DNA of 32,000 nt from Candidatus Hermodarchaeota archaeon (GCA_048886185.1 JBHLKY010000006.1:144967-176966), one strand, 5' to 3'. Positions 4,985 through 16,524 are shown, counted from the first letter of the stretch. The notes: a model not told the origin generated them from the sequence alone. A program made the numbers and translations.

Positions 4985-5692
4985 TTATCCTTTTCGTAGT
5001 TCAGAAATTAGGATATCACGAATGACCATTTGAATAGGCTGAATGATACGTTGAACAGGTTGAGGCCGAAGTTTAGGATTCCACTCACCTTTACCCCAAG
5101 CCTCTTTTAAGGCAACTAATGCCTCTAAACAACTAACTTCGAAGGTACTAGCGAAGGTATCACGTAATTTATCAGAAATGCCTGCTTCTAACATTAACTT
5201 GCCAACATCCGCAGCACTGATTCGTGTATCGGCAGGTAGATCCATCTTATTAAGCATAATAGCCATCTTAACCTCACGATTATAGAGCTTTTCGCCTAAT
5301 ATTTGAAAAAGTTCAGTAAGACTATCTTTATTCTCCTCCCAACGGGCTTTCTCAGAATCAATAACCACAATAAGACCATGGAGCCCATTGACAACAATTT
5401 TTCGCATAGATTTAAAACGATCTTGCCCTGGCGTAGTAAAAAGATGATACTTGAATCCCTTTCCTGGGCCGGTACCCAAGCCAAATGTTGCTTGATCAAA
5501 ACCAATCGTTCGTTCAGTTGCTTTATCCTCGAGTTTCAAAAACTGATAAACGCTTTCAGGGTCCTCTTTTTTCTTAATAGCATGAAATAAGCTCAATGCA
5601 GTAGTTTTTCCAGCTAATGTAGGGCCCCAAAAAACAATCTTAATACCTTTTTGAGCCTCTTCAAAAACAAGTTCTTCTTCTTGACTCAACAA
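4985..5692 (-). CDS. MglA-like small Ras-superfamily GTPase
   Basis: IKIVFWGPTLAGKTT (G1), ERTIGFD (MglA-type switch I with Arg), HLFTTPGQDRF (MglA-type G3), NKMD (G4) and EVSC (G5). TTG start with GAGGA upstream. Confidence 0.85.
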   Translation of the reverse strand: MLSQEEELVFEEAQKGIKIVFWGPTLAGKTTALSLFHAIKKKEDPESVYQFLKLEDKATERTIGFDQATFGLGTGPGKGFKYHLFTTPGQDRFKSMRKIVVNGLHGLIVVIDSEKARWEENKDSLTELFQILGEKLYNREVKMAIMLNKMDLPADTRISAADVGKLMLEAGISDKLRDTFASTFEVSCLEALVALKEAWGKGEWNPKLRPQPVQRIIQPIQMVIRDILISELRKG

Positions 5693-7899: not shown

Positions 7900-9825
7900 T
7901 TATTTACGAACACGAACCGCAACGTCCCTATTAAATGCCATCATCTCAGATGCAGCCAGAAGAGCACGTCCAGAATTGATAAATGAGTCTTTTTCATCTA
8001 TAATGAAAACTTCTTCTCCACAACGAATTTCAGGATCAACATCTAAGACAAATTTGGCTAGCAAATCTTTATTCTTAGAAATAAATGGAATACTTTCACT
8101 CATTGCTATAACACGCAACCGTGGATTGGGAATATACTTATGTAATCTTTGAGCAAAGTCTTTAGTAGGGATTATGACAAAGTCTGATGGACGAAATGTC
8201 CCTAATACCCCTGATTCGTCTGAAAAGCGACGAATGATTCCAGTTTTCTGTGATCGTTCAATATCCAAGGGAAGACCATCCAATATAGAATGCGTACCAG
8301 CGCCAAATTGATAATCTATGATAGCATTAAGGATATGACTCTCATTTAACTTGACAACATCTTTAACTTCTTCAAAAATGGTGTAATCATGTAGTATTTC
8401 CAGATCCAGATTAACTGAAGGATGAACTTCGACTCGTTTGAATCTTTTCCCATAAATTTCAAGAAATTTCACAATATATTGGAGCATATCGGACGAAAAA
8501 GTCATAGGAATTCTTTCATGCTGAACTAATGGATAAACACCTCGTAATTCGTCAGGAATTATTCCAAAAAGGGGAGATAATCTAATAACTTGGTAAGAAG
8601 ATGAAGAGTGTAGGTTTTGATAATCTTGCCCAATGAGTAAAACTGTATTCCAAATATAAAAGCGCTCTAAAATACGTTTTCTGTATCGTAATAATAGGGG
8701 AAGAGAAGTAAGAATGGGGTGTGAAATGAGGAGAGACCGAGATTTAGAAATTGGTTCATATTTTTCTATCAATTGAGATGTTGTGACACCAAAAAAGAGA
8801 TTTATGCCCCTAGCTAAAGAAGGATGGCTCATCATTCTTGCTAATACTAGTTCATAGAGACGACCATCAATGATAGCTTGCTTAACTCGACGAATTTCTT
8901 CTAAACTGGTAATGAGATTATGTTTAGCTAGTAAGAGGGTTCGATTTTCGTGATCCAGACGTTTTAGTTCGTAAACAGAATATTTCTGACATACTTCGCA
9001 CGAACATGGGAGAAATTGAAGTTTCTCTAGGTATTCCGTCCCATAAGCGGTTATATATCTACCTTTTTTAGCATAACGAATATATGCAGCTGAATCAAAC
9101 ATATCTATGCCTAGATATACTGCAATAGCAAAAAATAAGGGATGTCCAGCTCCAAAAAGATGGATTGGACGATTTTCAGGTAAAAACTCCTTTACTTTGA
9201 GTACTATTTGAATCACAGTCTCGAAGTCATACTTTTCTAATAATGGAACAACAGAACCGATAGGATGCACTCTGAAGTCCTTTTGGGCCATTTCAACGCA
9301 AGATTTCTCAATAAGATCCAAAAATTCCCCTCCTTGGATCGGCCCAGACCATAAAATTGAATCTGTTGAACTACGATGGTGAATATGTTCATCCGCCCTA
9401 TTAAGTGTTTCTTCTAAAGCTAACTTTGATTCCTCATAAGTTCCCCTTTTAACTGGAACATCCAAAAAAACACCAATGTCAGTATCTATTTGTTCTTGGA
9501 ACAGAGTAATCTCCTGATTGGTAACTGACACCTCACCATATTCCATCAGCTGAAATGCCCCCGAGTCAGTCATGAGAGGGCCAGAAAAACCAATATATTT
9601 GTGCAATCCTTCTTCTAATACTTTTTCTCGATTCAAAGGATCTTTATATAATAAATAAGCATTGGTAATAAAGCTCTCTGCACCAAGCTTCACCATTTCT
9701 TCAGGGTGTATCATCTGACGATTAGGATTGATAACAGGGAGAAGTACTGGGGTTGAAATTGTACCATGTTTTGTTGATAGCGTTCCGATTCGTGCTAATC
9801 CATCTTTCTTTTTTATTGTAAACAT
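7900..9825 (-). CDS. tgtA: Archaeosine tRNA-guanine(15) transglycosylase with C-terminal PUA domain (alternative GTG start at 9861)
   Basis: KDGLARIG, MTDSGAFQL, PIGSVVPLL, HLFGAGHP, DMFDSA, Zn site CSCEVC...HN and PUA-like FVLDVDPEIRCGEEVFII...GRALL. Confidence 0.95.
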   Translation of the reverse strand: MFTIKKKDGLARIGTLSTKHGTISTPVLLPVINPNRQMIHPEEMVKLGAESFITNAYLLYKDPLNREKVLEEGLHKYIGFSGPLMTDSGAFQLMEYGEVSVTNQEITLFQEQIDTDIGVFLDVPVKRGTYEESKLALEETLNRADEHIHHRSSTDSILWSGPIQGGEFLDLIEKSCVEMAQKDFRVHPIGSVVPLLEKYDFETVIQIVLKVKEFLPENRPIHLFGAGHPLFFAIAVYLGIDMFDSAAYIRYAKKGRYITAYGTEYLEKLQFLPCSCEVCQKYSVYELKRLDHENRTLLLAKHNLITSLEEIRRVKQAIIDGRLYELVLARMMSHPSLARGINLFFGVTTSQLIEKYEPISKSRSLLISHPILTSLPLLLRYRKRILERFYIWNTVLLIGQDYQNLHSSSSYQVIRLSPLFGIIPDELRGVYPLVQHERIPMTFSSDMLQYIVKFLEIYGKRFKRVEVHPSVNLDLEILHDYTIFEEVKDVVKLNESHILNAIIDYQFGAGTHSILDGLPLDIERSQKTGIIRRFSDESGVLGTFRPSDFVIIPTKDFAQRLHKYIPNPRLRVIAMSESIPFISKNKDLLAKFVLDVDPEIRCGEEVFIIDEKDSFINSGRALLAASEMMAFNRDVAVRVRK

Positions 9826-9912
9826 TAAACAGTGACCGCTCCTCTGATCGATTTTACACACTTGTGAGATGAACAGAAGTGTATTATGTTCGGAAGCAAC
9901 AATAGAATAATA

Positions 9913-11336: not shown

Positions 11337-14300
11337 TTACCCGCATTTTGAATAACCACAGACCCGACAAAGAATACACCCCTCACTATGCTCTACAAGA
11401 TTCCCACATTCAGGGCATTCAGGTCGGAGTCCTGAAGTAGTATGAGAGAGATAGATAGTACTACCCTCCGAACTAGAATCATTTACAGTTATTTCCCCCT
11501 CATTATCAGTCTCACGATGATGATTATTAATACTATAGCGGTTGATGAAACGTTCTATTGATTTAGCCACCGCATCAGCACAAGACAGGATTGGTCCTTC
11601 AGATCCAAAGGTAGGTGACGGACAACGAATAGATTTAAGCTGTAAAATAATTTCTTCAGATTCAATTCTACTACGTAAGGCTAATGAAATTAACCTTCCC
11701 ATTGATTCGATATGGGATGCAACACACCCTCCTGATTTTCCTAAGGACAAGAAAAGTTCAGCTAATCCTTCCTCATCCTCATTGATTGTAATAAATAAGT
11801 TTGTGCCACAACCGACCCGAACCCGTTCAGTGATTCCACGGGTAACATCAGGCCGATACCTCGGTTTTTTTGACTTTAATTCCTCATCTGGGGTGGTTTT
11901 CACTTCGTTTGTACCTTTTTTAGATAAGACATCGTATGTCCTTGAACCAGATCGATAAACTGTTAATCCTTTACAACCTAATTCATAAGCTAACATGTAA
12001 GCGTTATTAATCTCTTCCTCTGTAGCTTCTTGGGGAAAATTGATCGTTTTGCTAACTGCATTATCTACTCCTGAGGTCTGAAATGCTGCCTGCATCCTAA
12101 CATGCCACTCTGGGGAGATATCATGAGCAGTAACAAAGATTTGTCGTATTTCTTCGGGGATTTCAGTGATTTCACGTATTGATCCTGCCTTGGCAACAGT
12201 CTCCATCAGTTCTTGCGAGTAGAATCCTCTTTTCTTGGCAATTTCAACAAAAAAAGGATAACCCTCAACTAAAATATCATCATCTAAGACACGTCGTTCA
12301 TATGTCAACATAAAAAGCGGTTCTATTCCACTAGAACAACCAGCGATAATAGAAAGAGATCCTGTAGGTGCAAGCGTTGTTAGTGTCGCGTTTCGCATCA
12401 TAGGATATTTATCAACGTAAATACTCTTTTCAAAATTAGGAAAGGATCCCCGTTCTTTGGCAAGTCTTTGAGATTCTCGGATGGCAGTTGTATGGATGTA
12501 TGTCATGACTCTCTTTGCTAATTCAATACCTTTCTGTGAGTTATAAGGAATACCTAATTTAATCAACAGATCTGCAAAACCCATAACTCCTAAGCCAATT
12601 TTTCGATTAGCTCGTGTCATTCGTTCAATTTCTGGGAGAGGAAAGGTTGAAACATCAATAACATTATCCAAAAAGCGTACAGCTAAGGTTAAAACTCGTT
12701 CAAGACGAGTATAATCAACATGGAATGATAATGGATCAATAGCATCCCTTTTAACCATTTTGCTCAGGTTAACTGATCCTAAATTGCACGATTCGTATGG
12801 CAATAGAGGCTGTTCACCACAGGGGTTCGTTGCTTCAATTTCTCCAACATTTGGAGTTGGATTAGCGCTATTTATTCGATCCAAGAAGAGAATGCCTGGT
12901 TCCCCGTTGATATGAGCCATTTTCACGATTTCATTAAAGACAAGCCATGCTTTGAGTCGGGCTACTTCTTGATTATTACGAGGATTAACTAGAGGATAAT
13001 CGTCATCATGAATTACAGCTTCCATAAATGCCTCGGTGAGGCCCACAGAAATGTTAAAATTATTCAGGGTGGTTAAATCTTCTTTACAATGAATGAAATC
13101 CATGATATCAGGGTGATCGACCCGTAAAATCCCCATGTTCGCTCCACGGCGCCGGTTGTGGATGAGAATGCCATTAGCTACAAATTGATGTGAACCTGGA
13201 ACTTCAATATCCATTGTATATGCTTTTGCCCGTACAATCTTCTTAACTTGCGTAAAATAATAATTTGGATTAGAAATATTAGCAAAATGCTCATTATTAC
13301 TAATAATGTCGAAATTTTCTTGAAGAAATTTTAGCCTTTTTCTTGTTAAATTTCTTTTATTGGATGGATCACCTATGAAATGCTGAATAGCTCTATAGAA
13401 TTTTCTATTAGCTCCTCTCTTTTCTCTCCCTTTACTTGATCCTTTACCAATATATTTGGAAAGATGTTTTAATTTTTCTCCTTGGTTTGGTATTATATCA
13501 TTGTACTCGAATGCATTTTCATGATACCTTGACTCAAAGGTTTCCCTCTTTCTTTTTGTTATAAATCCGATTTCTTTATTAAATACTCTGAGAAATCTAT
13601 CTGAGACAATTTTTAAGGTATAAATCGGTTTCTTATTTAAACCGTTACCTCTTCTTTGTTTTACACTATAGCTAGATACAACATTTAAGCCTAGTAACAG
13701 CTGTTGTGTTTGTTCTATTAATTTTCGTGATGTAGAGTAGAGCTTGGGATACCCGTATGTATGTGTATTCCCATCTCCCTCAAATAAACCCCTAATAAAC
13801 GCTTTTGCTACTTCTGGATGAGATAGAAATATCTCTCTTGGAATAAAAGCTTTGGGGGGTGATTCCTTCTTCCATTCCATTTTTTCAAAAAATCTGTTTA
13901 AGTCGTGAGAATAAAAAATCAGATCACTCCAAGAACCATTATCCTCTTTCCTCCCAATTTTCAGGCCAAAAGAAAGGAACATTAAATCTTCAATTCGATG
14001 GATTAAATCAGAATCTCTATTATCAATGCTAAAAATCATCCTTCCACCAGTACTTAAGCAAGCATCGGCCATATATAATCCTAAAATTTCGCCCAGCTCA
14101 GGAGTCATCTTTTCAGGAATTTTAATGGGAGTAGCATTGAAATACTGTTCATTTATTTTAGGGAGGTTAACCTCTTTTCCATTATGACCTCCTAGTACTA
14201 CAATTACCCAGTCTCCTTCCTGAATTTGATTGATGGTTTTCCAAGCTTTTTCCCCTTTTTGATCGATACAAGCAATCTGATGATTATAAGTTGCCTCCAA

Positions 14301-15026
14301 ATTCAATCCAATATCAGTTTTAACTTTATAAACTTCAGCTATGCCATTATCCATCGAAATAAACGCATTATTATATGAATTTCCATCATAAACAAGCTCT
14401 TTTGTGAAGCTCTCTCCCATTGGAGGACAATCAAGTAATTTACCAAGTTCAATTACTCCGTTTGTAGTCCGAATGAAGCTTTCAGCTGAAACACATCCGC
14501 CCTGTTTAATGATCTCGGTGGCTGAATTGAAGACAGTCATAAAAGAGATAGGCCCACTAGCAATACCTCCAGTAGTTTGTACTTTATCATTAATTGGGCG
14601 TAATTGGGAAAAGGAAAACCCTGTACCTCCTCCAGATTTGTGAATAATGGCAGCATTCTTGATAGCCTGGAAAATAGAATCCATATCATCATGAATTGGC
14701 AAGACAAAGCAGGCAGATAATTGATTGAGTTCAGTTCCAGCATTCATCAATGTAGGTGAATTAGGCAAAAATTCAAGGTTGATCATCATTTTATAGAATT
14801 TTTCTTCGTAAAGAGCAGGATCACCCCCGTAACGCGCCTCATTCGATGCAATCGTCCTAGCTACCCTTTTAAATAGTTGATCAGGTGTTTCAATAACTTC
14901 ACCGCGTTCATTCTGCCTGAGATATCGCTTTTCAAGCACAATCTTCGCATTAGGTGTTAGATTGAGGGATTCTGCTTCGATGTCCTTCTCGTGTTCTTCA
15001 GAAATGAGGGTCATAATAATAATCAC
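11337..15026 (-). CDS. nrdJ: Adenosylcobalamin-dependent (class II) ribonucleotide reductase precursor containing an intein; C-terminal TSCPD/NrdJb-like domain and Zn ribbon (alternative ATG at 15014)
   Basis: FLPNSPTLMNAG, LSACFVL, SGGGTG.SFS.LRP, KQGG|RRRGANM, ATNPCGEQPL, ESCNLGS, APTGSLS, SSGIEP, AVSKTIN and C-terminal CPECG...CILCRVCGYSKCG. No ATP-cone is visible. Confidence 0.96.
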   Translation of the reverse strand: MIIIMTLISEEHEKDIEAESLNLTPNAKIVLEKRYLRQNERGEVIETPDQLFKRVARTIASNEARYGGDPALYEEKFYKMMINLEFLPNSPTLMNAGTELNQLSACFVLPIHDDMDSIFQAIKNAAIIHKSGGGTGFSFSQLRPINDKVQTTGGIASGPISFMTVFNSATEIIKQGGCVSAESFIRTTNGVIELGKLLDCPPMGESFTKELVYDGNSYNNAFISMDNGIAEVYKVKTDIGLNLEATYNHQIACIDQKGEKAWKTINQIQEGDWVIVVLGGHNGKEVNLPKINEQYFNATPIKIPEKMTPELGEILGLYMADACLSTGGRMIFSIDNRDSDLIHRIEDLMFLSFGLKIGRKEDNGSWSDLIFYSHDLNRFFEKMEWKKESPPKAFIPREIFLSHPEVAKAFIRGLFEGDGNTHTYGYPKLYSTSRKLIEQTQQLLLGLNVVSSYSVKQRRGNGLNKKPIYTLKIVSDRFLRVFNKEIGFITKRKRETFESRYHENAFEYNDIIPNQGEKLKHLSKYIGKGSSKGREKRGANRKFYRAIQHFIGDPSNKRNLTRKRLKFLQENFDIISNNEHFANISNPNYYFTQVKKIVRAKAYTMDIEVPGSHQFVANGILIHNRRRGANMGILRVDHPDIMDFIHCKEDLTTLNNFNISVGLTEAFMEAVIHDDDYPLVNPRNNQEVARLKAWLVFNEIVKMAHINGEPGILFLDRINSANPTPNVGEIEATNPCGEQPLLPYESCNLGSVNLSKMVKRDAIDPLSFHVDYTRLERVLTLAVRFLDNVIDVSTFPLPEIERMTRANRKIGLGVMGFADLLIKLGIPYNSQKGIELAKRVMTYIHTTAIRESQRLAKERGSFPNFEKSIYVDKYPMMRNATLTTLAPTGSLSIIAGCSSGIEPLFMLTYERRVLDDDILVEGYPFFVEIAKKRGFYSQELMETVAKAGSIREITEIPEEIRQIFVTAHDISPEWHVRMQAAFQTSGVDNAVSKTINFPQEATEEEINNAYMLAYELGCKGLTVYRSGSRTYDVLSKKGTNEVKTTPDEELKSKKPRYRPDVTRGITERVRVGCGTNLFITINEDEEGLAELFLSLGKSGGCVASHIESMGRLISLALRSRIESEEIILQLKSIRCPSPTFGSEGPILSCADAVAKSIERFINRYSINNHHRETDNEGEITVNDSSSEGSTIYLSHTTSGLRPECPECGNLVEHSEGCILCRVCGYSKCG
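13155..14495 (-). mobile_element. Intein (447 aa, precursor residues 178-624) with LAGLIDADG homing endonuclease
   Basis: Starts with Cys (TGT 14495-14493) after KQGG. Block B is ATYNH, block C ILGLYMADA, block E FIRGLFEGDG, block H LIEQTQQLLLGLNV, block F YTMDIEV, and it ends in block G ANGILIHN (AAC 13157-13155). Removing it restores IKQGG-RRRGANMG. Confidence 0.95.
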
Positions 15027-15912: not shown

Positions 15913-16524
15913 ATGAATAATGACACGTTAACCAAACGTTGGCGAACTGTAAAATCAAAAACTCCGATAATTGGGATTGATGATGGAGGGTTTGACCGTT
16001 TTTCCAAAGAAGATATCATTGTTCCTGTTTTTGGTGTCATCATGAAAGGAGCAGCCTACGTTGATGGCATTATTCAATGCTATCTTAAGAGAGATGATTC
16101 TGAGGCGACTACTACAATCACTAACATGATATTAGAGTCACCACATAAGAATCAGATAAAAGCAATTTTCTTACAGGGGATTACTATTGCAGGATTTGGA
16201 GTTATAGACATTATAAATTTGTTTGAAATAACAGGAATCCCAGTTATTGTAGTTCTACGAAAATCTCCAGACTATCCTAAAATACAAAGAGCTTTAGAAA
16301 AGACCTTTCCAGACGATCAAGAACGATGGTCAAGTATTCAACGTGCGGGTGACCTCGTAAAAGTCCAAGAAGATCCCCTTCTTCTCATACAAATAGCAGG
16401 AATCCATCCAAGGGATGCCTCTTTACTCATTAAGAAATGTACAGCCATTGGTACCATTCCAGAAGCTTTAAGGATTGCCCATTTCATTGGAGTAAGCTAT
16501 TATCATTATCCTAGCCAAATGTAA
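15913..16524 (+). CDS. DUF99 family protein (endonuclease V-like fold, 'endonuclease dU')
   Basis: IIGIDDG, VFGVIMKG...VDG, QGITIAGFGVIDI, GIPVIVV and IPEALRIAH.I. Confidence 0.88.
   Translation: MNNDTLTKRWRTVKSKTPIIGIDDGGFDRFSKEDIIVPVFGVIMKGAAYVDGIIQCYLKRDDSEATTTITNMILESPHKNQIKAIFLQGITIAGFGVIDIINLFEITGIPVIVVLRKSPDYPKIQRALEKTFPDDQERWSSIQRAGDLVKVQEDPLLLIQIAGIHPRDASLLIKKCTAIGTIPEALRIAHFIGVSYYHYPSQM

What the first reader, a model, noticed from the sequence alone, without database searches (positions are those of the whole stretch)
13140..14510. RNR intein followed by Arg: no +1 nucleophile, so canonical splicing is impossible
Seen: the junctions read ...AAA CAG GGC GGA | TGT GTT... and ...CAC AAC | CGG CGC CGT GGA GCG AAC ATG, that is KQGG|C...HN|RRRGANM. 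Cys1, the block B TxxH, the block F Asp and the terminal His-Asn are all intact, but +1 is Arg (CGG 13154-13152). No single substitution links CGG to a Cys, Ser or Thr codon, so a one-base error does not explain it. Established: all recognised intein classes need Cys/Ser/Thr at +1, whereas some bacterial intein-like Hint domains lacking it cleave or ligate by a proposed aminolysis route. The QGG..RRGA segment is the RNR specificity loop 2. The catalytic SAC Cys lies N-terminal to the intein, while NPCGE and ESCN lie C-terminal. Inference, four options: (a) non-canonical splicing through the freed Arg alpha-amine; (b) double cleavage giving a naturally split two-chain RNR broken in loop 2, comparable to the split NrdA of phage Aeh1; (c) homing into an Arg allele that killed the gene; (d) an assembly chimera of intein-plus and intein-free alleles.
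Basis: partly seen in the sequence, partly recalled or inferred. Interest (0 to 1): 0.9.

Follow-up and report, generated by a model that had tools for sequence, protein, structure and literature searches.

The report
RNR intein lacking its splicing nucleophile
The only ribonucleotide reductase gene of this Asgard archaeon is interrupted by an intact, mobile intein followed by arginine instead of the Cys/Ser/Thr that all described inteins need. More than a hundred related archaeal inteins share this trait, so an undescribed way of removing the intein probably exists.

Summary
The nrdJ gene (11337-15026, minus strand) carries a 447-aa LAGLIDADG intein (14495-13155) between KQGG and RRRGANM, and +1 is Arg (CGG 13154-13152).

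It is not an error or a chimera. Contigs from other studies bridge both junctions unchanged. Same-genus genomes hold the empty site ATEIIKQGG|RRRGANMG.

It is a lineage trait. Of 149 homologous inteins at this loop-2 site, 127 have K/R/I/M/V at +1, and all keep Cys1 and His-Asn. They form one clade (support 0.999), sister to canonical Thr/Ser+1 inteins. The clade also differs in the residue before His-Asn and in blocks A, B and F.

The gene is the only RNR found in this genome (96% complete) and in four closed genomes, so an active enzyme must result.

- **Best reading (about 0.5):** BIL-type splicing. A Cys1 thioester forms, Asn cyclises, and the freed alpha-amine attacks the thioester (aminolysis).
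- **Main rival (about 0.3):** double cleavage gives a two-chain NrdJ nicked in loop 2.
- **Rejected:** dead allele and assembly chimera.

No paper describing this was found. Earlier agents of this scan saw the same lineage on other DNA.

The parts
11337..15026 (-). nrdJ, adenosylcobalamin-dependent (class II) ribonucleotide reductase precursor. It is 1229 aa from GTG 15026; the ATG at 15014 is the likelier start. It is the only RNR gene found in the genome.
   Evidence: ORF. NCBIfam NF006417 scores 1122.6 bits against a cut-off of 961. Pfam finds Ribonuc_red_lgN, Ribonuc_red_lgC and TSCPD. It is the single PF02867 gene and there is no PF13597 in G000.
14496..15026 (-). N-extein (residues 1-177), ending ...ATEIIKQGG. 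It contains the SAC cysteine and the first half of specificity loop 2.
   Evidence: Translation. It aligns to T. maritima NrdJ 128-204. Intein-free alleles read ATEIIKQGG|RRRGANMG.
13155..14495 (-). Intein, 447 aa (residues 178-624): a HINT splicing domain with a LAGLIDADG homing endonuclease inserted in it.
   Evidence: Pfam PF14890 and PF14528. AF2 model with pLDDT 88 and pTM 0.89. The best fold matches are the TliVMA intein 7qss (E 8e-28), PI-PfuI 1dq3, 2cw7 and PI-SceI. The insertion is precise relative to empty alleles.
14493..14495 (-). Cys1 (TGT), the N-terminal splice nucleophile.
   Evidence: Cys is found in 149 of 149 inteins at this site.
14280..14291 (-). Block B T69-Y-N-H72.
   Evidence: In the clade T69 is 100% and H72 is 97% conserved.
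14058..14090 (-). LAGLIDADG motif 1 (EILGLYMADAC). This copy has Ala145 where 98% of the clade has Gly.
   Evidence: Contigs from runs X5 and X6 carry the Gly codon at 14062.
13770..13799 (-). LAGLIDADG motif 2 (FIRGLFEGDG).
13209..13211 (-). Block F Asp (D429).
   Evidence: In the clade this position is D in 85% and E in 12%.
13155..13160 (-). Terminal His446-Asn447 (CAC AAC).
   Evidence: His-Asn is found in 149 of 149 inteins at this site.
13152..13154 (-). The +1 residue Arg625 (CGG), which is not a nucleophile.
   Evidence: Independent contigs show no change here. The empty site in relatives also has Arg, and one of them uses CGG.
11337..13154 (-). C-extein (residues 625-1229 plus the stop codon). 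It begins RRRGANMGIL and contains NPCGE, ESCN, the TSCPD domain and a Cys-rich tail.
   Evidence: It aligns to T. maritima NrdJ from R206.

Best explanation
This is a genuine, mobile, LAGLIDADG-bearing intein in specificity loop 2 of the cell's only ribonucleotide reductase. It belongs to a large archaeal lineage that lost the +1 Cys/Ser/Thr once and has kept working since.

The most likely mechanism is protein splicing by the route proposed for type A bacterial intein-like (BIL) domains.
1. Cys1 makes the N-S acyl shift, giving a Gly177 thioester.
2. Asn447 cyclises without a branched intermediate and frees the alpha-amine of Arg625.
3. That amine attacks the unhindered Gly thioester directly (aminolysis), giving intact KQGG-RRRGANM. 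The amine is held close to the thioester because the two exteins fold into one RNR barrel.

Shown here: the junction, the lineage, its single origin, its mobility, selection on it, and that it sits in the sole RNR gene. Inferred: that ligation rather than cleavage alone occurs, and the order of the steps.
For: The junction is real.

It is a lineage trait. Of 149 full-length inteins at QGG|xRRG, +1 is K in 105, R in 15, I in 5, M in 1 and V in 1, against T in 15 and S in 7. All have Cys1 and His-Asn. All 26 related inteins at other sites have C/S/T at +1.

The non-nucleophile inteins form one clade with support 0.999, sister to canonical Thr+1 inteins at the same site.

The active site changed in a coordinated way:
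- The residue before His-Asn is V/I/L in 127 of 127 non-nucleophile inteins, against S/T in 21 of 22 canonical ones.
- Arg9 was gained (91% against 0%).
- The basic residues after the block B His were lost.
- The His-Thr-Tyr of block F became variable-variable-Phe.

An active product is required. This is the only RNR found in G000, which is 96% complete. It is also the only RNR in the closed genomes of Ca. Heimdallarchaeum aukensis and Ca. H. endolithica, Nanoarchaeota YN1 and a Micrarchaeota chromosome.

The inteins are intact in 56 species genomes. The Lys codons AAA/AAG are one change from Thr, yet Thr is not seen there; that scan's search pattern favoured K/R/I.

The intein is under purifying selection, with dN/dS 0.19.

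It is mobile. Empty sites reading ATEIIKQGG|RRRGANMG occur in 23 of 30 NrdJ loci from genomes of the same class. Its synonymous divergence is about half that of the flanks.

The -2 and -1 residues are invariant Gly-Gly.

Precedent: BIL domains lack the +1 nucleophile (PMC7664689). Dassa et al. 2004 JBC 279:32001 and Aranko et al. 2013 FEBS J 280:3256, both cited, reported ligation without one. Their content I give from my own knowledge.
Against: There is no biochemical, proteomic or RNA evidence for any product. BIL domains give mainly cleaved products (PMC7664689), and canonical inteins mutated at +1 normally only cleave (my own knowledge). Every computational observation here fits double cleavage equally well. 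The clade-specific substitutions have not been tied to any chemical step. The genome is a MAG, so an unassembled second RNR is not strictly excluded, although four closed genomes show the same picture.
Confidence: 0.5

Rival explanations
1. Double autocleavage without ligation. The Cys1 thioester is hydrolysed and Asn447 cyclises. The 177-residue and 605-residue pieces stay together non-covalently, giving a two-chain NrdJ nicked in loop 2.
For: This needs the same conserved residues: Cys1, TxxH and His-Asn. BIL domains without a +1 nucleophile mainly cleave (PMC7664689). A split RNR alpha works in phage Aeh1 (alpha-a plus alpha-b; review PMC3267527). Loop 2 is flexible. Another scan note reports a giant-virus RNR intein with Gly at +1 in the same loop (e1-5308108; not tested here), which would fit a site that tolerates a nick.
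Against: The nick would lie between the S205 and R206 equivalents, in the middle of the loop whose main-chain conformation carries the specificity signal (PMC3267527). No NrdJ gene naturally split at this site was seen among the 61 class genomes with a match. Hydrolysis of an intein thioester is normally slow (my own knowledge). The lineage has persisted and spread in sole-RNR genomes with no sign of reverting to Thr.
Confidence: 0.3
2. The intein is removed, or the exteins are joined, by some other route not considered here. Examples would be a host factor acting on the cleaved ends, or a different intramolecular chemistry specific to this clade.
For: The clade has its own conserved residues with no known role: Arg9, Tyr70, Glu431 and Phe438. 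Nothing has been tested at the bench.
Against: The lineage occurs in very different archaeal phyla, in reduced DPANN genomes, and in a few contigs labelled as bacterial MAGs, so a shared host factor is unlikely. Inteins are self-contained as a rule (PMC4031507).
Confidence: 0.1
3. The intein is never removed. NrdJ works with a 50-kDa domain permanently inserted in loop 2.
For: None directly. It cannot be excluded without protein data.
Against: Cys1, His446 and Asn447 are invariant in 127 sequences that fall to about 30% identity with the window's intein, which is not expected if no chemistry occurs there. Loop 2 sits at the dimer interface and bridges the effector and substrate sites (PMC3267527). 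Empty alleles are common in close relatives.
Confidence: 0.04
4. Dead allele: homing into an Arg allele inactivated the gene.
For: The +1 residue is a non-nucleophile. This copy's endonuclease carries six private substitutions at conserved positions.
Against: The ORF is intact at 1229 aa with all catalytic motifs. It is the only RNR found in this genome and in four closed genomes. Arg or Lys is the native residue at the site. The trait has one origin and the lineage has diversified widely since. dN/dS is 0.19.
Confidence: 0.03
5. Sequencing error or assembly chimera of intein-plus and intein-free alleles.
For: The genome is a metagenome-assembled genome.
Against: A contig from another study crosses the C-junction with identical letters while differing elsewhere. 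56 other genomes and more than 120 database proteins have the same HN|K/R/I junction.
Confidence: 0.01

Closest known systems
Canonical class 1 LAGLIDADG inteins at the same NrdJ loop-2 site with Thr/Ser at +1 (the sister clade found here, for example P0128, P0137 and P0109)
   Same: Same insertion point (KQGG|xRRGA), same architecture and length, and the same Cys1, TxxH, block F Asp and His-Asn. They share 35-39% identity with the window's intein, and the tree places them as the nearest relatives.
   Different: They have Thr or Ser at +1, Ser or Thr before His-Asn, basic residues after the block B His and His-Thr-Tyr in block F. The window's lineage has K/R/I/M/V at +1, V/I/L before His-Asn, and has lost the other features.
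Homing-endonuclease inteins with solved structures: TliVMA/PhoVMA inteins (7qss, 7qst), PI-PfuI of the Pyrococcus furiosus RNR (1dq3), the intein homing endonuclease II of entry 2cw7, and PI-SceI
   Same: The same two-domain fold, HINT plus LAGLIDADG. Foldseek E-values run from 8e-28 to 1e-11, and the sequence match to 7qss/7qsu has E 5e-12.
   Different: By my own knowledge, all of these are followed by Cys, Ser or Thr and splice by the standard four steps. Sequence identity is only 9-20%.
Type A bacterial intein-like (BIL) domains, for example Clostridium thermocellum BIL4 (PDB 2lwy; Dassa et al. 2004; Aranko et al. 2013)
   Same: A HINT domain with Cys1 and a C-terminal His-Asn followed by a non-nucleophile. 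They are the only precedent for ligation by aminolysis (references listed).
   Different: BIL domains have no endonuclease, sit in variable bacterial proteins rather than in a conserved site of an essential enzyme, mostly cleave, and form a separate sequence family. The window's protein gave no PF07591 hit. By descent the window's element is an intein.
Split NrdA (alpha-a plus alpha-b) of Aeromonas phage Aeh1
   Same: An RNR catalytic subunit that works as two polypeptides (review PMC3267527). It is the model for the two-chain rival.
   Different: That split is at the gene level and was caused by a free-standing endonuclease gene. No intein is involved, and the review passage read here does not place the break in loop 2.

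Membership tests
Intein (class 1, canonical) | HINT splicing fold with blocks A, B, F and G | tested here: met
   PF14890 with E 5e-12. AF2 model with pLDDT 88, and Foldseek matches to solved inteins.
Intein (class 1, canonical) | Cys or Ser as the first residue | tested here: met
   Cys1, TGT 14495-14493.
Intein (class 1, canonical) | Block B Thr-x-x-His and C-terminal His-Asn | tested here: met
   T69-Y-N-H72 and H446-N447.
Intein (class 1, canonical) | Cys, Ser or Thr at +1 of the C-extein | tested here: not met
   The +1 residue is Arg, CGG 13154-13152. Of 149 homologues at this site, 127 also lack a nucleophile. The first Cys/Ser/Thr downstream is at +23.
Intein (class 1, canonical) | Precise in-frame insertion in a conserved host site, with intein-free alleles in relatives | tested here: met
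   Of 30 loci in the same class, 23 read ATEIIKQGG|RRRGANMG.
Intein (class 1, canonical) | Excision with ligation of the exteins | not testable with these tools
   It is only inferred that an active RNR must result.
Class 2 / class 3 inteins | No N-terminal nucleophile (Ala1). For class 3, also the Trp-Cys-Thr motif with a block F Cys. | tested here: not met
   Cys1 is present, the block F position is Asp429, and the residue before His-Asn is Ile or Val, not Thr. Both classes still need a +1 nucleophile (PMC7664689).
Type A BIL domain | HINT domain with Cys1 and His-Asn, followed by a non-nucleophilic residue | tested here: met
Type A BIL domain | Membership of the BIL sequence family, no endonuclease, and a host that is a variable bacterial protein | tested here: not met
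   No PF07591 hit at E <= 0.01. A LAGLIDADG domain is present and the host is the essential NrdJ. In the tree it nests among inteins.
LAGLIDADG homing endonuclease | Two LAGLIDADG motifs with acidic residues | tested here: inconclusive
   PF14528 with E 5e-18, and both motifs are present with D144 and E239/D241. However, this copy has G145A and five other private changes at positions 92-98% conserved in the clade. Activity was not tested.
Class II RNR (NrdJ) | Match above the equivalog cut-off, and the catalytic cysteines | tested here: met
   NF006417 at 1122.6 bits against 961, and TIGR02504 at 693 bits against 400. SAC, NPCGE and ESCN are present.

The most novel reading that the evidence does not exclude
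These elements may be a fourth mechanistic class of true inteins. They would ligate their exteins with no side-chain nucleophile at +1. After Asn cyclisation the freed alpha-amine would attack the Cys1 thioester, with the two ends held together by the folded host enzyme. The class would be widespread in Archaea and would sit in the only ribonucleotide reductase of many genomes.
Probability: 0.5. Interest if true: 0.9.

Novelty: new variant of a known kind. Interest (0 to 1): 0.82.

Why it matters
Every review read here states that inteins of all three classes need Cys, Ser or Thr at +1 (PMC4031507, PMC7664689). Here a large, old and still mobile intein lineage lacks that residue, in an essential and often unique gene.

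- If it splices, that rule is wrong. A natural scaffold would then exist for traceless protein ligation at junctions without Cys, Ser or Thr, which is a standing limit of intein technology.
- If it only cleaves, many archaea run on an RNR nicked in its specificity loop. That would be new for RNR allostery.
- Either way, annotation pipelines that demand a +1 nucleophile will miss or mis-flag these genes.
- The question can be tested directly with one expression construct.

Tried and rejected
**Shifted junctions.** Moving both junctions by one or more residues cannot put a nucleophile at +1. The residues at the two ends differ (G against N, C against R), and empty alleles fix the site exactly.

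**A downstream nucleophile.** The first Cys/Ser/Thr is at +23. I rejected this.

**Literature.** Ten searches found no description of an RNR or archaeal intein without a +1 nucleophile, nor of a 'class 4' intein (one search was a syntax error). The library lacks most subscription journals, so this is not proof of novelty.

**RNA evidence.** No RNA holder was listed for this stretch, so expression is untested.

**Viral contigs.** Only distant LAGLIDADG matches appeared and no member of this lineage.

**Extein dN/dS.** In one search the fixed extein windows ran into other inteins in the relatives, so those extein values are unusable. One search used shorter flanks instead.

**Genome-contig scan.** The scan used the pattern HN[KRI]RRGA, so its +1 tallies are biased. 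I used it only for taxonomic breadth and intactness.

**Complex prediction on the two halves.** Not run. Halves of one fold pass by likeness and would not separate the readings.

**RNA-level removal (an archaeal intron).** Not tested. I judged it unlikely given the in-frame HINT domain with conserved catalytic residues.
Full report
**1. What is there**

The minus-strand ORF 11337-15026 (1229 aa) is a class II, adenosylcobalamin-dependent ribonucleotide reductase.
- NCBIfam NF006417 scores 1122.6 bits against a cut-off of 961.
- Pfam finds Ribonuc_red_lgN, Ribonuc_red_lgC and TSCPD.

The ORF is interrupted by a 447-aa element that matches Intein_splicing (PF14890) and LAGLIDADG_3 (PF14528).

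- Cys1 is 14495-14493.
- His-Asn is 13160-13155.
- The +1 residue is Arg, CGG 13154-13152.

Counted from GTG 15026, the intein is residues 178-624 and +1 is R625. My first searches used 177-623, one residue off, which did not affect them.

An AlphaFold2 model of the intein with short flanks is confident (pLDDT 88, pTM 0.89). Its best structural matches are endonuclease-bearing inteins: TliVMA 7qss (E 8e-28), PI-PfuI 1dq3, entry 2cw7 and PI-SceI.

**2. The insertion is exact and lies in specificity loop 2**

T. maritima NrdJ (1xje) aligns as ...VVKQG204-S205|R206-RRGALM. K202 and Q203 are the loop-2 residues that read the substrate base (PMC3267527).

I looked at 30 NrdJ loci from genomes of the same class.
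- 23 are empty at this site and read ATEIIKQGG|RRRGANMG. Arg is usual, Lys occurs in some, and one empty allele even uses CGG.
- 7 are occupied, including this window. Several same-genus genomes are among the empty ones.

So the element is a precise, sporadically distributed insertion, and the +1 Arg is simply the host's native residue.

**3. It is not an artefact**

Contigs assembled from other studies' runs cover the region with strain-level differences elsewhere.
- X6 record 7 (12900-13250) crosses the C-junction with no difference at 13152-13160.
- X5, X6 and X8 contigs cross the N-junction.

**4. It is a lineage trait**

The 120 best database relatives of the intein all sit at the same site, all keep Cys1 and His-Asn, and have K, R, I or M at +1. 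Only two distant ones have Thr.

I added an exhaustive profile-free search of cluster representatives. Together the searches gave 149 full-length inteins at QGG|xRRG.

| +1 residue | Count |
|---|---|
| K | 105 |
| R | 15 |
| I | 5 |
| M | 1 |
| V | 1 |
| T | 15 |
| S | 7 |

All 26 related inteins at other insertion sites have C/S/T at +1.

I built a tree after removing sequences more than 90% identical (128 tips).
- The non-nucleophile inteins form one clade of 81 tips with support 0.999.
- That clade is sister to canonical Thr+1 inteins at the same site.
- The single nested exception, P0129, has its junction shifted by one residue (KQG|C...LVHN|SFRRGA), so that a Ser falls at +1.

Within the clade +1 changed several times among K, R, I, V and M. 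It tracks the host residue.

**5. The active site was remodelled with the loss**

These figures come, with 80, 22 and 26 dereplicated sequences in the three groups.

| Position | Non-nucleophile clade | Canonical relatives |
|---|---|---|
| Residue before His-Asn (445) | V/I/L in 127 of 127 | S/T in 21 of 22 |
| 444 | Leu | Val |
| Block F (436-438) | variable-variable-Phe | His-Thr-Tyr |
| After the block B His (73, 75) | basic residues lost | Lys/Arg at both |
| Block B | TYNH | TPNH |
| 9 | Arg in 91% | Arg in 0% |

The clade keeps C1 (100%), T69 (100%), H72 (97%), D/E429 (97%), H446 (100%) and N447 (100%). This pattern looks like an adapted mechanism, not a recent accident. What each change does is inference.

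**6. The host needs it to work**

In this genome (4.84 Mb, 96% complete) the gene is the only match to the class I/II catalytic domain, and there is no class III NrdD.

The same holds in four closed genomes that carry the lineage: Ca. Heimdallarchaeum aukensis PM71, Ca. H. endolithica PR6, Nanoarchaeota archaeon YN1 and a Micrarchaeota chromosome. A fifth genome, Culexmicrobium, does have NrdD.

The lineage is found in Hod-, Heimdall-, Thor- and Hermodarchaeota, Micr-, Aenigmat-, Woese- and Nanoarchaeota, Methanoperedens, Thermoplasmata, Methanomassiliicoccales, Hydrothermarchaeales, Culexmicrobium and a few contigs labelled as bacterial MAGs.

In 56 species-representative genomes the intein ORF is intact at 368-450 aa. 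The +1 codons are AAA/AAG (35), CGN/AGR (17) and ATH (4). The search pattern used there favoured K/R/I. AAR is one change from a Thr codon, yet Thr is not seen.

Against the two same-genus occupied alleles the intein has dN/dS of about 0.19. Its synonymous difference (0.33 and 0.41) is about half that of the flanking exteins (0.63-0.80). That fits transfer by homing after the species diverged.

**7. Mechanism**

With no side chain common to K, R, I, M and V, the only nucleophile available at the C-junction is the alpha-amine that Asn cyclisation releases.

The route proposed for type A BIL domains fits. It runs through a thioester at Cys1, Asn cyclisation, then aminolysis (Dassa et al. 2004; Aranko et al. 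2013; references listed, content from my own knowledge). It fits for three reasons:
- Cys1, TxxH and His-Asn are retained.
- Gly-Gly at -2/-1 is invariant, which gives an unhindered thioester.
- The two exteins belong to one barrel that can hold the ends together.

I rate this reading at about 0.5.

The main rival, at about 0.3, is double cleavage giving a two-chain NrdJ nicked in loop 2.
- For: BIL domains mostly cleave (PMC7664689), and phage Aeh1 runs on a split alpha subunit.
- Against: the nick would sit in the loop whose backbone carries the specificity signal, and I saw no gene naturally split at this site among the 61 class genomes with a match.

Other readings are unlikely or refuted (section 6):
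- permanent retention of the intein;
- a dead allele;
- an assembly chimera.

**8. Comparison with what is known, and novelty**

By descent, context and fold this is an intein. It fails one defining feature of every recognised intein class, the +1 nucleophile. It shares that feature only with BIL domains, to which it is not related more closely than other inteins are.

Ten literature searches found no description of such inteins (see Tried and rejected). The library is incomplete, so this is not proof.

Earlier agents of this scan reported the same lineage in other genomes (e1-548487, e1-548520, e1-548507, e1-2598223). One also reported a giant-virus RNR intein with Gly at +1 in the same loop (e1-5308108).

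**Verdict.** The feature is real. It is a new variant of a known kind, and it can be tested directly by expressing one construct.

Noticed in passing
window 14058-14090 and other intein codons (intein residues 29, 118, 145, 287, 301, 346): This copy alone carries N29S, H118Y, G145A (inside LAGLIDADG motif 1), G287N, S301F and Y346S. These positions are 92-98% conserved in the clade and are conserved in its closest relatives. Contigs from runs X5 and X6 have the Gly codon at 14062. The endonuclease of this copy may be decaying while the splice residues stay intact.
   Followed up: partly
G047:C1:920767-921042 and G047:C1:2590062-2590148 (L087 covers the first): In one same-genus genome the C-extein match is split between two places 1.7 Mb apart on one contig. 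The open frames are 329 and 683 aa, and the break is where other relatives carry a further intein. It could be a split-intein (trans-splicing) nrdJ or an assembly join.
   Followed up: no
relatives' nrdJ loci: Many relatives have nrdJ open frames of 1,500-2,750 aa with several inteins; for example both Heimdallarchaeum genomes have about 2,500 aa. The window's gene has only this one intein (782 aa of extein plus 447 aa).
   Followed up: no
P0129 (metagenomic protein): This is the only nucleophile-bearing member nested in the clade. Its junction is shifted by one residue (KQG|C...LLVHN|SFRRGAMM), so that a Ser occupies +1. It may be a secondary return to canonical splicing.
   Followed up: no
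window 13155-14495 against its flanks: Synonymous differences to the two same-genus occupied alleles are 0.33 and 0.41 in the intein, against 0.63-0.80 in the adjacent exteins. This suggests the intein is younger than the host genes' divergence and arrived by homing.
   Followed up: partly
P0002: The database's own gene call for this locus is 1027 aa and starts inside the intein, so automatic annotation truncates the precursor.
   Followed up: no
window 11337-11700 (C-terminus of nrdJ): The NrdJ ends with a TSCPD domain followed by a Cys-rich tail (CPECG...CILCRVCGYSKCG) that looks like a zinc ribbon.
   Followed up: no
window 4985-5692 (-), 7900-9861 (-), 15913-16524 (+): The neighbouring genes are an Arf/Ras-like small GTPase, an archaeosine-type tRNA-guanine transglycosylase with a PUA domain, and an endonuclease dU. 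This is ordinary archaeal chromosome context, in keeping with the Hodarchaeota/Heimdall-group (Asgard) affiliation of the closest relatives.
   Followed up: partly
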